A DNA stretch of 64,000 nucleotides from Escherichia coli (lineage in GTDB: Bacteria > Pseudomonadota > Gammaproteobacteria > Enterobacterales > Enterobacteriaceae). Position numbers: made by a program. Of this stretch, positions 44,701 through 50,700 are shown in pieces. The DNA lies in the NCBI RefSeq assembly GCF_041886205.1, contig NZ_CP169029.1, one strand, 5' to 3'. How positions within the stretch are numbered: the stretch's first letter is position 1; each line of letters opens with the position of its first letter.

Positions 44701-47700
44701 CAACGGAGGCTAATGGCATGAAATTGACGCTGAAAAACCTTAGCATGGCGATCATGATGAGTGGAATGATCATGGGAAGCAGTGCAATGGCGGCGGACAG
44801 CAACGAAAAAATAGTCATCGCCCATCGCGGTGCCAGTGGATATTTGCCGGAGCATACGCTGCCAGCAAAAGCGATGGCGTATGCGCAGGGAGCGGATTAT
44901 CTGGAACAGGATTTGGTGATGACCAAAGACGACCATCTGGTTGTCCTGCATGACCATTATCTCGATCGTGTTACTGATGTTGCCGATCGTTTCCCGGATC
45001 GGGCGCGCAAAGACGGTCGTTACTACGCGATAGATTTCACGCTGGATGAAATTAAGTCGCTGAAATTTACCGAAGGTTTCGATATTGAAAACGGTAAAAA
45101 AGTGCAGACTTATCCGGGGCGTTTCCCAATGGGTAAGTCCGACTTCCGGGTGCACACCTTTGAAGAAGAGATTGAATTTGTTCAGGGGTTAAATCACTCA
45201 ACCGGAAAAAATATCGGTATCTATCCAGAAATTAAAGCGCCGTGGTTCCATCATCAGGAAGGGAAGGATATTGCGGCAAAAACGCTGGAAGTGCTGAAGA
45301 AATATGGTTACACCGGTAAGGACGACAAAGTTTATTTGCAATGTTTTGATGCTGATGAGCTGAAGCGTATTAAGAATGAGCTGGAACCTAAAATGGGCAT
45401 GGATCTCAATTTGGTACAGCTGATTGCCTATACCGACTGGAATGAAACGCAGCAGAAACAGCCGGACGGAAGCTGGGTTAATTACAACTACGACTGGATG
45501 TTTAAGCCGGGTGCTATGAAACAGGTGGCGGAATATGCTGATGGTATTGGCCCGGATTACCATATGTTGATTGAGGAAACATCGCAGCCGGGTAATATCA
45601 AACTCACTGGCATGGTGCAAGATGCTCAGCAGAATAAACTGGTAGTGCATCCTTATACCGTGCGGTCAGATAAACTGCCTGAATACACTACTGATGTGAA
45701 TCAGTTATATGATGCTCTGTATAACAAAGCGGGTGTAAATGGGCTATTTACTGATTTCCCTGATAAGGCAGTAAAATTTCTTAATAAAGAGTAATGCTAC
45801 TGCAGGATGGCGTTCATGCGCCATCCTCTGCTAAAACGAAATAATGCTTCTACCGGTTATTCTATTCATTAACCGGTGCATCCTGTTAAAAAAGATGCCA
45901 ACATATTTGCGTAAAACTCATTCGTTAAGAAAGCTAACACTGGGCATTGTTATTCCTTAAACAGTATGAATTGGGTTCAATAATAAATTTTATTGCAGTT
46001 TATACTGTAAAGTATTATTCGTATTTCGGAAAAGTAAAGAAAATATTAATGTATCTTATTAATTTATCATATTGTTCTTGAGTGAATGCTGTTTGCACAC
46101 CTTCAGGACAATATTCACCAGTAATAACCAGTTGTCCATTGCTGTGTTGTACCATTAAACCTTTTTTTTCCTTTGGATCTTCAAACTTAGAATTATCAAA
46201 CGTGAAGATGTTATTTTCCTGTTTTGAGTAAGCAAAGAAATCTCGTGTATAGCTGAAACTATCATTTATTAATGGTGCTAACTTTTTGTCGGCGATATCG
46301 ATAAGCTCACCACTTAATTTATTGATGTATTTCATTTGATTCAATTTTTTCTGCGCTTGTACAATTTGCTCGTAGGTATTTTTAATTTTTTTAGAAGAAT
46401 TCTTGAATATATCATAGCGTTCCTCGGAGGATGTGTATTTGTACCCTTCTGTATTTTTCTCAGAATGTAATAGCAGGTCTGTATATTCTTTTTGTTTGCT
46501 GTGAAGTTGACTTTTAATACTTTCCTCACTGCTGATCTTATGATGTTTATCAGAGTCGTTTGTTTTTGAAATGTCTTTTTCTGTCAGTGTCTGGTCCGTG
46601 TTGTGGATATTTTCTTTTGCAACATGCTCATTGATGATGTTAATTGCAGCTTCATATTCATTTAAGTTTATTGTTCTTTCTGAAAGAAACCCTTCTTTGC
46701 TTTCGATACTCAAAACACCTTCGTTGTTTTCACCTCGGGTAAAGGTAAGGGTATAGGGTTCATAATCCGCTGCAAATTCATTTTTATACGTTATGACATG
46801 TTCGACAAAATGTCTTATTGGTACGAAACCATAACTGTGAACGTCAATTTCTTGGGTCTTGATGCTATCAATTGCATCTGAGGCTTTCGTGAAAAAAGCC
46901 AATAAATTAGCTATGTTGTCTGCTGAGGTTGATAACCCGTATCTACTTTGAGATATTTTTAGAAACTCATCGCAAAAAATCTCAAGTTTCGCGGTTTGTT
47001 GTGATTCTTTGTAAACTTCTACTGGTTGCAATTTATTATTTTGTAAAAGATTACAGCGAGATAAGTGAATAGATGTATTTGGCATAAATGATTCCTTGTA
47101 ATGTGAGTTAACAAGATACAATTTAATCTTTGCAGAATATATTCACTATCAAATTTAGCTCATTTTATTACGAAGACCTTTACGCATGTTAGAAAGTATC
47201 ATTATTGTTAATAAACACGGTAATAATTAACAAACAGATGTTTATAACTTCCCTGACAAGTTATTAGGTAACCCACTTGAAGATTGAGAATGGCTTCAGA
47301 GTAAACTGTGTACTGTTCGCCGGAGTGTCATTACTCTCAACAATCGGTTTTGACAGTGAGTCGGGCGCTTCATACCGGTTTCTACCTGGAGTCATTGTCA
47401 CTTCCCTAAACTGGATAAATATATATCGCTAATTCACAACGTGGACCAAAATCAGATGAAAACGCATTATTACGCATGGTAAAGCCTACAGGCCAACTAA
47501 GTGTGGCTAATCAGGCAATCTTACATTTGTCATCAATCTCATGTCTCACATCAAATTTTTCCACTCACCACGAGTTGTTCCGTACACGTTTGTAGTAAAA
47601 ACAGTGGACTGCCTTCTACCGGCTTTTCTTTAGCCAACAACGAAATCTGTCGATAGAAGGTTGGTTCGAGAGGAACGGAACACAATTCACCTGCAATGGT

Positions 47701-50700
47701 TTTCAGCGTTAACTCTGGTAATAAGGCGATGCCTAATCCCTGTCGAATAAAACTGATCGCTGTATCCGGGTGATTAAATTCGTATTTTATCTGCGGAGTA
47801 ATATTCTTTTCTTTAAATAACGCCATAATGCTTAATTCATAGCGCCCTTTACTAATAATCAACGGTTCCCCCATTAACTCTTCTACTGTAATAGTGCTGT
47901 TTTTTGCCAGAGCATGGTCGGGCGGTAACACTACGGTGAATTTATCCTGATAAATGGGCACGGAGTACATTCCACTCACCGGAAAATGAACAAAACCGGC
48001 ATCAATGGATTCATTCTGAAGCGAATCAATAATCGCTGTGCTATTTTCCTCAAAAGGAATAATTTTTATATTCGGATGATGGATTTCAAAGTAGCGAATC
48101 ACAACCGGTAAGATACAGGCGCAGACGCTGGGGAAACAACCAAGTCGCAGAGTTCTTTGAGGGTTCTGCTTTTCCTGTTCGGCTATCTCTTTTACTGCGT
48201 TAACTTCCCGATTAATGGCGCGCAGATGATGCACAATGCGGTGACCTGCTGTGGTCAGTTGTATAGCTTTACGGCGATCGCGTAACAGTATATTCACGCC
48301 AAGTTCTTGTTCGAGGGCAGCAATTGCCTGACTTACCGCCGACTGCGTCATGAACAATCGCTTGCTGGCTTCAGTAAAGCCACCGTAATCCAGCACGGCG
48401 AGTAAAGAATTTATTTGGGTAAGAGTCATTAGCGTTTACTAATCAATTATATTAAAACGATTAATTTCTCTAATAGCATGCCGCCATTTATACTTCTGTT
48501 CTGCAAAGTACATCACACTTTGACGCAACCGCAGTAACGGGAGTGTTGTCTGCGTGCGTCATCCTGACAGGCGGTAGGGTATGAAAGAGAAGTTATGGAC
48601 GAAGGATTTTTGGGCAATAACCATCATCAGCTTTATTATTTTCTTCGTCTTTTATGTTTTACTAACATTGTTGCCAATTTATATCTCTGACCGCTTGCAT
48701 GCCTCTCCTGATAAAGCCGGTTTGTTGGTGACTTTATTTTTAATTGCCGCCATTGTTATTCGCCCCTTTGCCGGGCAATGGGTGGGTAAATATTCGAATA
48801 AAACTATTCTGGTGCTCTCTTCTCTGGCCTTTTTGTTGGTCACTGCGTTGTATCCTTTTTGCCACTCAATTGAATCACTGCTTTTTATTCGGGTGCTTCA
48901 TGGTATTACCTTCGGGGTTATCACTACGGTAAAAGGAACGATTTCCGCGCGGCTGATCCCGGCCTCCCGACGTGGGGAGGGCATCAGTTTTTTCTCTCTG
49001 GCAATGGGGCTGGCAATGGTGGTCGGGCCGTGGATTGGTCTGAATATGGCGCGCTGGGAAGCCTTTAATCTGGCTTTCTGGCTATGCACCGGCGTGGCAG
49101 CGGTGGGGATTATCCTGTCGCTGATTATGACAGTGCCGCCGGTTATCAGCCATGCTGATGGTTCAAAGCCGAAAATGGGCTTCGCCGCCATGTTCGATCG
49201 CGCGGCGTTGCCATTTGCGATGGTCACCTTTTTTATGACCTTTTCGTATGCCGGGGTTTCTGCTTTTCTGGCGCTTTATGCTCGCGAACTTAACCTGATG
49301 TCGGCGGCCAGTAATTTCCTGCTTTGCTACGCCATCTTCCTGATGATCTGCCGTACTTTTACCGGCAATGTCTGCGACAAAAAAGGACCGAAATATGTGG
49401 TTTACCCTTGCCTTGTGTTCTTTACGGTAGGACTGGTGGTTCTCGGCTACACCCAGGGAAGCATAATGATGGTTGTTTCTGGCGCGTTGATTGGTATCGG
49501 GTATGGTTCCGTGACACCAGTATTTCAGACGCAGATTATCAGTTCAGTGGAGCCGCATAAAATCGGTGTCGCAAACTCTCTCTTCTTCAATGCCATGGAT
49601 GCAGGCCTGGCGCTAGGAGCCTTTGTGATGGGGATGATGGTTGCACATACTGGCTACCGGATGATTTATCTGCTGGGCGCACTATTAGTGGTAGTGGCTG
49701 GTGGAATCTATGCGCTGCAAATGAAGGGCAAAAGTGGTGTCACACTAGTAGCAGCAAAAGAAATTCATTAATACGACACGTTTCATTAAGACTTTCCTCA
49801 GGTAACCACCTATAGTCATTGTCGTTAATAAAACGACAGGCGATAGGATATGGCAGTTTCAGCAAAGTACGACGAATTTAATCACTGGTGGGCAACAGAG
49901 GGCGACTGGGTTGAAGAGCCTAACTATCGCCGTAATGGTATGAGCGGGGTGCAATGCGTCGAGCGCAACGGCAAAAAGCTGTATGTAAAGCGCATGACGC
50001 ATCATCTGTTTCATTCCGTACGTTATCCGTTCGGCCGACCGACGATTGTCCGTGAGGTTGCGGTAATTAAAGAACTGAAACGGGCCGGTGTCATCGTGCC
50101 GAAGATCGTTTTTGGTGAAGCGGTGAAAATTGAGGGTGAATGGCGCGCGTTGCTGGTGACTGAAGATATGGCGGGGTTCATCAGCATTGCTGACTGGTAT
50201 GCTCAGCATGCAGTAACGCCTTATCCTGACGAAGTACGGCAAGCCATGTTGAAAGCAGTGGCGCTGGCGTTTAAGAAAATGCATAGCGTTAATCGTCAGC
50301 ATGGCTGTTGTTATGTTCGTCATATCTATGTGAAAACAGAAGGTAAAGCAGAAGCTGGTTTTCTTGATCTGGAGAAAAGTCGTCGCCGCTTACGTCGCCA
50401 TAAAGCGATTAATCATGACTTCCGCCAGCTGGAAAAATATCTGGAGCCGATCCCCAAAGCGGACTGGGAGCAGGTGAAAGCGTATTACTACGCTATGTAA
50501 TCGTTGTAGGCCAGATAAGACGCATAAGCGTCACATCTGGCACTAAAACCAATTCACATCTCGATTTCAATATCGCCTTTTGCCCGGCAACAACAGGGCA
50601 AAATTTCCCCCGGCTGAATAAAGGCTAACGGTTCGGCAATCCAGTCCACCTGACCTGCGACCAGTCGGGTGCGACAGGAGCCGCAGTAACCTTCGCGGCA

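What the first reader, a model, noticed from the sequence alone, without database searches (positions are those of the whole stretch)
47551..49771. Divergent LysR regulator / MFS transporter pair that K-12 appears to lack
An intact 292-aa LysR-type regulator (47551..48429, minus) is divergently paired with a 396-aa MFS transporter (48581..49771, plus) across a 151-bp spacer. The spacer contains TTAAAACGATTAA (48452-48464), which fits the LysR T-N11-A pattern with partial dyad symmetry. As I recall, K-12 carries only a LysR pseudogene fragment (yfaH) at this position, so this looks like the ancestral or alternative intact module. The substrate is unknown. The unplaced ORF lies 465 bp downstream of the LysR gene on the same strand, so co-regulation is possible but unproven.
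Basis: partly seen in the sequence, partly recalled or inferred. Interest (0 to 1): 0.45.

Follow-up and report, generated by a model that had tools for sequence, protein, structure and literature searches.

The report
Known LysR–MFS pair, O-island 97
This is an intact copy of a regulator-plus-transporter gene pair already published as O-island 97 (z3495/z3494) of E. coli O157:H7; it is an old enterobacterial cassette that K-12 lost by a small deletion, so it is real but largely ordinary.

Summary
There is an intact 292-aa LysR regulator (47551-48429, minus) and an intact 396-aa, 12-segment MFS transporter (48581-49771, plus) across a 151-bp spacer. K-12 keeps only the yfaH remnant.

The pair is not new. 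It is O-island 97 of EHEC EDL933 (z3495 LysR, z3494 MFS; PMC10819331), and that paper's cloning primers map exactly onto this ORF.

What I add:
- **K-12 deletion:** 1879 bp were lost between two 9-bp direct repeats (TTTATCTGC at 47786 and 49665). The same junction is present in the two other remnant-class genomes I checked.
- **Ancestry:** the pair sits at this chromosomal site in E. albertii, Salmonella, Citrobacter, Klebsiella and Kluyvera. dN/dS is about 0.05. It is therefore ancestral, not laterally acquired as the paper says.
- **Operator:** The array is invariant and gap-free in nine taxa and sits at a fixed distance from a conserved -10-like TATACT.

The likely mechanism is a ligand-gated LysR that represses its own gene and activates the adjacent exporter. 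This is inferred, and the ligand is unknown.

The neighbouring AT-rich ORF is a separate, decaying, E. coli-only orphan.

The parts
47551..48429 (-). LysR-type regulator, 292 aa. It is the orthologue of EHEC Z3495; K-12 yfaH is its 3' remnant.
   Evidence: ORF. Pfam HTH_1 (residues 3-63) plus LysR_substrate (88-267). 99% aa identity to the O157:H7 protein. Published z3495 primers map to both ends. dN/dS 0.04-0.06.
48581..49771 (+). MFS transporter, 396 aa, 12 hydrophobic segments. It is the orthologue of EHEC Z3494.
   Evidence: ORF. Pfam MFS_1. 12 segments, motif A-like twice and motif C-like GLAMVVGPWIG. Best solved relative is NorA. Best NCBIfam hit is the YhhS/YfcJ-type PRK05122, far below cut-off. 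dN/dS 0.04-0.07.
48430..48580 (.). 151-bp divergent control region.
   Evidence: 52 of 151 positions are invariant in nine taxa. The left 65 bp are gap-free and the right part is full of indels.
48428..48443 (.). Dyad 1, ATTAG-N6-CTAAT, abutting and overlapping the LysR start codon. Proposed high-affinity (recognition) site, centred about -66 from the inferred MFS transcription start.
   Evidence: Arms are invariant in 8 of 9 taxa while the 6-bp centre varies freely. It is the only match in 64 kb, with 0.03 expected.
48451..48465 (.). Dyad 2, ATTAA-N5-TTAAT. Proposed activation site, centred about -44.
   Evidence: 13 of its 15 positions, and 16 of 18 when the following TTT (to 48468) is included, are invariant in nine taxa, including Leminorella, whose LysR is only 61% identical. 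The pattern is expected 0.07 times per 64 kb.
48470..48474 (.). Fifth half-site, CTAAT, about -30. Possible alternative partner of the TTAAT half-site.
   Evidence: Conserved in 8 of 9 taxa; CTTAT in the divergent E. coli allele.
48489..48494 (+). -10-like hexamer TATACT for the MFS gene (inferred promoter element).
   Evidence: The TAnnnT positions are invariant in nine taxa (TATACT x6, TATAAT, TATTAT, TAGAAT). There is no gap between it and the operator. The simple sigma-70 scan does not call it.
48509..48527 (.). Conserved block T..ATCACA...T.A.G.A of unknown role, lying in the inferred MFS leader.
   Evidence: Invariant positions. Its distance to the operator is not conserved, because Citrobacter has a 56-nt insertion.
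47786..47794 (.). Left copy of the 9-bp direct repeat TTTATCTGC. This is the left end point of the K-12-type deletion.
49665..49673 (.). Right copy of the 9-bp direct repeat TTTATCTGC. This is the right end point of the K-12-type deletion (1879 bp removed).
   Evidence: The published OI-97 deletion primer arm ends here.
47551..47794 (-). The part of the LysR gene that survives in K-12 as the yfaH pseudogene.
   Evidence: blastn against MG1655 gives 92% identity. NCBIfam PRK09729 matches residues 226-292.
45828..47538 (.). 1711-bp AT-rich islet carrying the orphan ORF (46015-47085/47121, minus). It is NOT part of the module and is listed only to mark the boundary.
   Evidence: GC 30-36%. Absent from K-12, from E. 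coli with LysR+MFS only, and from all other genera.

Best explanation
The region is an intact copy of the E. coli cassette known as O-island 97: a LysR-type regulator (Z3495; K-12 remnant yfaH) transcribed divergently from a YfcJ-like 12-segment MFS transporter (Z3494).

Shown here:
- It is an ancestral Enterobacteriaceae two-gene unit lying between glpQ (or glpA) and yfaE-nrdBA.
- Both genes are under strong purifying selection.
- K-12 and most other E. coli destroyed it with one 1879-bp deletion between 9-bp direct repeats.
- Other lineages lost it by at least two further, independent deletions.

Inferred mechanism:
- A LysR tetramer sits on a conserved array of five ATTAR/YTAAT half-sites spaced 9-12 bp apart (48428-48474).
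- The array starts at the regulator's own start codon, so binding should repress its own transcription.
- The array ends over the -35 region of a conserved -10-like TATACT (48489-48494).
- On binding an unknown small ligand, the protein would activate the MFS gene in the usual LysR manner, with a recognition site near -66 and an activation site near -44.
- The transporter most likely exports that ligand or a related toxic metabolite by proton antiport.

Published for O157:H7 and not tested here: the regulator is also needed for LEE expression, adherence and mouse colonisation, whereas loss of the transporter has no such phenotype.
For: Identity with O-island 97:
- The published z3495 primers match 48406-48429 exactly and 47551-47572 with one mismatch; the OI-97 deletion arm matches 49665-49704.
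- The protein is 99% identical to the O157 protein.

Domains.

K-12 state:
- MG1655 annotation shows only yfaH.
- blastn junctions lie at 47794|49665, with a 9-bp repeat at both ends.
- The same junction is present in O103 RM8385 and strain IH5.

Population: the pair is intact in 1219 of 5426 complete E. coli genomes, partial in about 3147 and absent in 1060.

Ancestry:
- The site and orientation are the same in Salmonella, Klebsiella and Kluyvera and in E. albertii and Citrobacter.
- The pair is kept together in a different context in Leminorella.
- LysR identity falls with phylogeny (90, 81, 77, 69, 61%) and then drops to 48% or less.
- dN/dS is 0.04-0.07 with saturated dS.

Operator:
- There are no gaps over the 68 alignment columns from the LysR start codon to the -10-like hexamer.
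- 26 of 45 positions are invariant, while the inter-arm bases vary.
- Downstream, 123 of 201 columns hold gaps.
- Pattern rarity is shown.

Export leaning:
- The motif C-like GP core and an RxxxG in segment 4, visible in the sequence printed.
- Nearest solved structure is NorA.
- Most sub-threshold NCBIfam hits are exporters.
Against: - No experiment links the regulator to the transporter. The only paper did not test z3494 expression or binding to the spacer.
- The paper's ChIP peak table is in MG1655-like coordinates, where the spacer does not exist.
- The simple sigma-70 scan finds no promoter in the spacer, so the transcription start and the -66/-44 geometry are inferred from conservation only.
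- Dyad 1 has T-N10/N12-A spacing rather than the textbook T-N11-A.
- Transport direction is not established: importers such as aromatic-acid, lactate and MhpT symporters also appear among the weak hits.
- No enzyme gene travels with the pair, so nothing points to the ligand.
- The transporter's closest homologue outside the group (55% identical) sits next to a LysR that is only 24% identical, so the pairing is not universal.
Confidence: 0.75

Rival explanations
1. A laterally acquired virulence island, as published. On this view OI-97 entered EHEC/EPEC and some ExPEC lineages by horizontal transfer, and its main role is to switch on LEE through rcsF; the transporter is a passenger.
For: PMC10819331 reports that the z3495 deletion lowers LEE transcripts, adherence and mouse colonisation, that Z3495 shifts the rcsF promoter in EMSA, and that the gene is patchily distributed in E. 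coli. GC of the LysR gene (41-47%) is below that of the flanks.
Against: The K-12-type genomes keep the 3' ends of both genes, so they once had the pair. The pair is at the same site in five other genera, none of them carrying LEE as far as I know. Protein identity tracks phylogeny. The rcsF promoter has no match to the conserved operator within two mismatches beyond chance. The listed ChIP peaks have low enrichment (log2 1.17-1.81), fall mostly in highly expressed genes, use MG1655-like coordinates, and none lies at rcsF. The virulence phenotype may still be real as a secondary, lineage-specific effect.
Confidence: 0.1
2. The architecture is the same, but the MFS is an importer: the LysR senses a nutrient and turns on its uptake.
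For: Weak NCBIfam hits include symporters for aromatic acids, lactate, sialate and 3-hydroxyphenylpropionate. Repeated loss in many E. coli lineages would fit a niche-specific nutrient.
Against: No catabolic gene accompanies the pair in any of the eight contexts examined. A motif C-like GP core is present in segment 5. NorA is the best solved relative, and the top family hits are exporters.
Confidence: 0.12
3. The two genes are neighbours only. The conserved spacer motifs serve another DNA-binding protein or only the regulator's own autoregulation, and the transporter is expressed independently.
For: The z3494 and z3495 deletions have different phenotypes in EHEC. No direct test of regulation exists.
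Against: The divergent pair stays together even where the surrounding genes differ, as in Leminorella. The operator-to--10 spacing on the transporter side is strictly conserved in nine taxa.
Confidence: 0.08

Closest known systems
O-island 97 of E. coli O157:H7 EDL933 (z3494 MFS, z3495 LysR; Wang et al. 2024, PMC10819331)
   Same: Same genes at the same locus. The LysR is 99% identical at the protein level and the MFS 98%. The published primers map onto the window.
   Different: The window strain is not O157: it is identical to strain wlxctx60 from a bear and about 95% identical to O157 at DNA level. The paper treats the island as laterally acquired; the synteny found here says it is ancestral.
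yfaH (b2238), LysR-family pseudogene of E. coli K-12
   Same: yfaH corresponds to window 47551-47794, the last 67-81 codons of this regulator.
   Different: K-12 lacks the HTH domain, most of the effector domain, the whole spacer and 91% of the transporter gene. The window copy is intact.
Divergent LysR/MFS pairs of E. coli K-12 such as PunR-PunC (YdhB-YdhC) (from my own knowledge, not tested here)
   Same: Same layout: a LysR regulator transcribed divergently from a single 12-segment MFS gene that it is thought to activate in response to the transported compound.
   Different: No sequence relationship was tested, and the ligand and transport direction here are unknown.
YfcJ/YhhS-type MFS transporters (NCBIfam PRK05122; CDD MFS_YfcJ_like according to PMC10819331)
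   Same: This is the best-scoring named family over the full length (residues 10-379, E 2.8e-32).
   Different: The score is 111.9 bits against a cut-off of 374, so this is a distinct orthologous group. The next representatives in the 50%-identity clustered library drop from 55% to 37% identity or less.
Classical LysR operator architecture: recognition site near -65 plus activation sites near -45/-35, with autorepression (general knowledge of the family)
   Same: Dyads lie at about -66 and -44 from the inferred start. A T-N11-A core is present in dyad 2. The operator overlaps the regulator's own leader and start codon.
   Different: The positions rest on an inferred -10. Dyad 1 has a 6-bp rather than a 5-bp centre. 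Nothing has been footprinted.

Membership tests
LysR-type transcriptional regulators | N-terminal winged helix-turn-helix (Pfam HTH_1) | tested here: met
   PF00126, residues 3-63, E 1.4e-17.
LysR-type transcriptional regulators | C-terminal LysR substrate-binding domain; protein of about 300 aa | tested here: met
   PF03466, residues 88-267, E 2e-36; 292 aa. Full-length similarity to the solved CysB, BenM and OxyR.
LysR-type transcriptional regulators | Divergent target gene with a dyad operator containing T-N11-A | tested here: met
   ATTAA-N5-TTAAT at 48451-48465 is invariant in nine taxa.
LysR-type transcriptional regulators | Negative autoregulation and co-inducer-dependent activation | not testable with these tools
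   Needs reporter fusions, EMSA or footprinting with and without ligand.
Major facilitator superfamily | MFS_1 fold with two six-helix halves | tested here: met
   PF07690, residues 14-346, E 4.3e-46, plus a second-half hit at 213-375. 12 hydrophobic 19-mers.
Drug/metabolite:H+ antiporter type MFS (DHA1-like) | Motif C (G-x3-GP-x2-GG) in helix 5 and motif A in loop 2-3 | tested here: inconclusive
   GLAMVVGPWIG has the GP core but non-canonical spacing. Motif A-like GQWVGKYSNK lacks the Asp, whereas the second-half copy GNVCDKKGPK has it. NorA is the best solved hit, but only over the N-terminal half.
YfcJ/YhhS subfamily (NCBIfam PRK05122) | Score above the curated cut-off of 374 bits | tested here: not met
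   111.9 bits. It is related but not a member of that curated subfamily.
EHEC O-island 97 (z3494/z3495) | Same genes at the glpQ-inaA locus; published primers match | tested here: met
YfaH (NCBIfam PRK09729, K-12 remnant) | Match above the 139-bit cut-off | tested here: met
   148.1 bits on residues 226-292.

The most novel reading that the evidence does not exclude
The regulator's native job is ligand-gated control of the adjacent exporter through the conserved five-half-site operator, and the published LEE/rcsF link is a secondary or lineage-specific effect. In addition, E. coli maintains two ancient haplotypes of the regulator plus operator: about 75% nucleotide identity over 1.2 kb, with sharp borders inside 93-98% identical flanks. 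These might recognise different ligands, which would point to balancing or diversifying selection on a sensor rather than simple decay.
Probability: 0.15. Interest if true: 0.4.

Novelty: already known. Interest (0 to 1): 0.2.

Why it matters
There are three modest points.

1. It corrects the evolutionary reading of a published EHEC "O-island". OI-97 is an ancestral enterobacterial cassette that K-12 and most E. coli lost. It is not a laterally acquired virulence element.
2. It supplies a concrete, testable operator and promoter model for Z3495. The published ChIP peak list, which is in K-12-type coordinates, could not have revealed this.
3. It flags a regulator–exporter pair that is conserved in Salmonella, Citrobacter, Klebsiella and others, and whose ligand is unknown. 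Because the model strain lacks the pair, it has been little studied.

None of this would surprise a specialist.

Tried and rejected
- **Known RNA families:** an Rfam scan of 45700-50000 gave only a chance hit.
- **Leader hairpin:** the inferred MFS leader has a GACGCA/TGCGTC hairpin, but it folds no better than shuffled sequence (z -0.59). No leader RNA element is proposed.
- **Promoter scan:** the simple sigma-70/terminator scan found no promoter in the spacer and no terminator between the MFS gene and inaA.
- **Second dyad match:** a second ATTAA-N5-TTAAT match at 12325-12339 lies inside an AT-rich ORF of about 406 aa (my reading: elaD). I treat it as chance.
- **rcsF promoter:** the K-12 rcsF promoter region has no operator-like motif beyond chance.
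- **Substrate clues from distant homologues:**
  - The 55%-identical transporter on a 36%-GC contig also has a divergent LysR, but that protein is only 24% identical to this one.
  - The 36-37%-identical homologues sit next to TetR or short-chain dehydrogenase genes.
  - No substrate could be inferred from any of these.
- **Literature:** searches for yfaH, STM2280/STM2281 (my recalled Salmonella tags) and OI-97 gave only the one relevant paper.
- **Neighbouring ORF:** PADLOC, PHROGs, Pfam and NCBIfam found nothing for it.
- **Not run:** a TCDB search (not available). I also did not use structure prediction or a genome-contig scan, because they would not have changed the verdict.
- **Technical:** three early script calls failed on a file-naming issue and were repeated.
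Full report
**1. Observation**

ORF listing confirms a 292-aa ORF at 47551-48429 on the minus strand and a 396-aa ORF at 48581-49771 on the plus strand, separated by 151 bp. Pfam gives HTH_1 plus LysR_substrate for the first ORF. For the second it gives MFS_1 over the whole length. A hydropathy scan finds 12 hydrophobic segments.

The sequence TTAAAACGATTAA is at 48452-48464 as stated. The surrounding genes are:
- glpT-glpQ upstream;
- an AT-rich ORF (46015-47121, minus);
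- inaA, yfaE and nrdB downstream.

The window is 100% identical here to E. coli strain wlxctx60, isolated from Asian black bear faeces in Japan. It is about 95-97% identical to other E. coli that carry the region.

**2. K-12 comparison**

MG1655 has only the pseudogene yfaH (b2238) between inaA and glpQ. blastn of the K-12 interval against the window shows two missing segments.

- **45828-47538 (1711 bp).** This segment holds the AT-rich ORF.
- **47795-49664.** The two flanking alignments overlap by 9 bp. TTTATCTGC occurs exactly twice in the region, at 47786 and 49665. The K-12 allele is therefore a 1879-bp deletion between 9-bp direct repeats.

The second deletion removed the first two-thirds of the LysR gene, the spacer and all but the last 107 nt of the transporter gene. 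The NCBIfam model built on K-12 YfaH (PRK09729, 68 aa) matches residues 226-292 of the window protein above its cut-off.

The identical junction is present in O103 strain RM8385 and in strain IH5. IH5 still has DNA of the AT-rich islet upstream.

**3. Population states**

Counts among the 5426 complete E. coli genomes:

| State | Genomes |
|---|---|
| Pair intact (at least 80% of 47540-49780) | 1219 |
| ...of which also carry the AT-rich islet | 710 |
| Partial matches, mostly the K-12-type remnant | about 3147 |
| No match | 1060 |

Annotated examples show at least six structural states:
- islet + pair, as in O157:H7 and the window;
- pair without the islet;
- K-12-type remnant;
- remnant plus an IS1-disrupted islet;
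- an IS1-associated deletion running from the islet ORF into the transporter gene;
- complete loss of 45827-49753.

The cassette has therefore been lost several times independently.

**4. It is already known**

A literature search on EDL933 locus tags found Wang et al. 2024 (PMC10819331). That paper defines O-island 97 as a 2006-bp region with z3494 (MFS_YfcJ-type) and z3495 (LysR-type).

The primers map as follows:
- z3495 forward cloning primer: matches 48406-48429 exactly.
- z3495 reverse cloning primer: matches 47551-47572 with one mismatch.
- OI-97 deletion arm: matches 49665-49704, ending at the repeat that marks the K-12 junction.

The O157 proteins are 99% (LysR) and 98% (MFS) identical to those in the window.

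The paper reports the following:
- Deleting z3495, but not z3494, lowers LEE transcripts, HeLa adherence and mouse colon counts.
- Z3495 does not shift LEE promoters but does shift the rcsF promoter.

The paper reports no test of regulation of z3494 or of binding to the z3494-z3495 spacer.

**5. Ancestral, not acquired**

The transporter has 84-86% identical orthologues in Salmonella, the Klebsiella oxytoca group and Kluyvera. In each genus, contig look-ups show the same divergent LysR-MFS pair between glpQ (or glpA) and yfaE-nrdB-nrdA. The same holds for E. albertii and Citrobacter. In Leminorella the pair is kept together in a different neighbourhood.

LysR orthologue identities follow phylogeny:
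- E. albertii 90%;
- Salmonella 81%;
- Citrobacter 76-78%;
- Klebsiella about 69%;
- Leminorella 61%.

Below that, identity falls abruptly to 48% or less.

Both genes have exactly the same length in all genera. dN/dS is 0.04-0.07 while synonymous sites are saturated. K-12-type genomes also retain both gene ends (section 2). Taken together, this shows that OI-97 is a K-12-lineage deletion, not an O157 insertion. The lower GC of the LysR gene (41-47%) is shared history and not evidence of recent import.

**6. The control region**

Spacers were aligned from nine taxa: window, O157, a divergent E. coli allele, E. albertii, Salmonella, Citrobacter, Klebsiella, Kluyvera and Leminorella. The main results are below.

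- From the LysR start codon to 48494 there is not a single gap over 68 columns.
- Downstream, 123 of 201 columns contain gaps.
- Within 48430-48474, 26 of 45 positions are invariant.

The invariant positions form five half-sites, while the bases between the arms vary freely:

| Half-site | Coordinates |
|---|---|
| ATTAG | 48428-32 |
| CTAAT | 48439-43 |
| ATTAA | 48451-55 |
| TTAAT | 48461-65 |
| CTAAT | 48470-74 |

The centres are 9-12 bp apart.

T-N11-A itself occurs 14 times in the spacer and carries no weight alone. The two dyad patterns are far rarer: 0.07 and 0.03 matches are expected per 64 kb.

Fifteen bases after the last half-site lies a hexamer whose TAnnnT positions are invariant. 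It reads TATACT in six taxa, and TATAAT, TATTAT and TAGAAT in the others.

If this hexamer is the -10 of the transporter promoter, transcription starts near 48501. That places dyad 1 at about -66, dyad 2 at about -44 and the last half-site at about -30. This is the textbook LysR recognition-site/activation-site layout (general knowledge of the family). The array also covers the regulator's own leader and start codon, which fits autorepression. All of this is inference from conservation. The simple sigma-70 scan calls nothing in the spacer.

A further conserved block (ATCACA...T.A.G.A, 48509-48527) has no assigned role. Its distance from the operator is not conserved.

**7. What the transporter may do**

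- The best named family is the YhhS/YfcJ type, but it scores far below cut-off (111.9 against 374 bits).
- Most other weak hits are exporters: multidrug, staphylopine, myxochelin, bacillibactin, sugar efflux, chloramphenicol and tetracycline. Some symporters are mixed in.
- The best solved relative is the NorA antiporter, over the N-terminal half only.
- A motif C-like GP core (GLAMVVGPWIG) and two motif A-like loops are present. An RxxxG is visible in segment 4 of the sequence printed by the same call.
- In the 50%-identity clustered library, the representatives drop from 55% to 37% identity or less, so this is an isolated orthologous group.
- No enzyme gene accompanies the pair anywhere.

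I therefore favour export of the inducing compound. I hold this loosely, at roughly 60:40 against import among models where the two genes are coupled.

**8. Remarks on the published regulon**

- The ChIP peak table (Table S4) lists ptsH at 2533764, glpA at 2352683 and a maximum coordinate of 4.47 Mb.
- These match MG1655, although the methods state that reads were mapped to EDL933.
- In such coordinates the z3494-z3495 spacer does not exist, so self-binding could not be seen.
- Enrichments are low (log2 1.17-1.81), and most peaks lie in highly expressed genes.
- No listed peak falls at rcsF, which is at 219.6-220.1 kb in MG1655.
- The K-12 rcsF promoter has no operator-like motif beyond chance.

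I report these as observations on the table as held. They do not disprove the EMSA or the phenotypes.

**9. The neighbouring ORF**

- It lies in the 1711-bp, 30-36% GC islet.
- The islet is absent from every other genus and from many E. coli that have the pair. It also occurs alongside the deleted pair.
- Its product has no family in NCBIfam, Pfam, PHROGs or PADLOC.
- Its only homologues are E. coli proteins of 79-99% identity, many of them truncated.
- Against O157 it shows dN/dS 0.73. It also carries a +1/-1 indel pair that rewrites about 14 codons, and this appears to be why PGAP flags it as frameshifted in the identical strain.

Co-regulation with the LysR gene is therefore unlikely.

**10. 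Verdict**

The module is, however, already annotated and published, and its architecture is a standard LysR/MFS pair.

The added value has three parts: the deletion mechanism, the correction from "acquired" to "ancestral and repeatedly lost", and a specific operator/promoter model.

Interest is low (0.2) and novelty is "already known".

Noticed in passing
window 45828-47538 (ORF 46015-47085/47121, minus; indels near 46455-46490): An AT-rich 1.7-kb islet carries a 356/368-aa orphan ORF found only in E. coli. It matches no family. dN/dS is 0.73 against O157, and a compensated +1/-1 frameshift rewrites about 14 codons. PGAP calls it a pseudogene in the identical strain. It looks like a decaying or very fast-evolving gene.
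   Followed up: partly
L011 (E. coli ESDR8) 2990-4190, equivalent to window about 47567-48750: About 100 E. coli genomes carry a sharply bounded, highly divergent haplotype of the LysR gene, the spacer and the first ~150 nt of the MFS gene. It is 70-80% identical at nucleotide level and the LysR is 84% identical at protein level, which makes it as distant as E. albertii. The flanks are 93-98% identical, and the operator half-sites are nearly unchanged. It is either an import from an unknown relative or an old polymorphism.
   Followed up: partly
PMC10819331 Supplementary Table S4: The ChIP-seq peak coordinates match MG1655 (ptsH 2533764, glpA 2352683, maximum 4.47 Mb), although the methods say EDL933. 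Enrichments are all log2 1.17-1.81, and no listed peak lies at rcsF (219.6-220.1 kb).
   Followed up: partly
L024 (E. coli GDSC2227PM), L012 (SCU-124), L013 (strain 114): Further independent loss alleles exist at this locus. One is an IS1-associated deletion joining window about 46215 to 49268. Another is a clean deletion of 45827-49753. A third is an IS1 insertion in the orphan ORF combined with the K-12-type deletion.
   Followed up: partly
window 49772-49849 and inaA 49850-50500; loci L003, L005, L006, L019, L020: Among the loci examined, inaA sits between the MFS gene and yfaE only in E. coli. E. albertii, Salmonella, Citrobacter, Klebsiella and Kluyvera have the MFS gene next to yfaE. Only 78 bp separate the MFS stop from inaA, and no terminator-like site was found there, so read-through from the MFS promoter into inaA is possible.
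   Followed up: no
window 12325-12339: There is a second exact match to ATTAA-N5-TTAAT (ATTAAAACTATTAAT, 14 of 15 bases identical to the operator dyad). It lies inside an AT-rich 406-aa ORF (11944-13164, minus; my reading: elaD) and is probably chance.
   Followed up: partly
protein P0328 (Salmonella bongori, 177 aa): The S. bongori LysR orthologue is recorded as a 177-aa protein covering 61% of the query. This may be another independent truncation of the regulator.
   Followed up: no
window 45700-50600: Only 6 of 5426 complete genomes are at least 99% identical to the window over this stretch. The best match is a strain from Asian black bear faeces. Synonymous divergence from O157 in the MFS gene is 0.21.
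   Followed up: no
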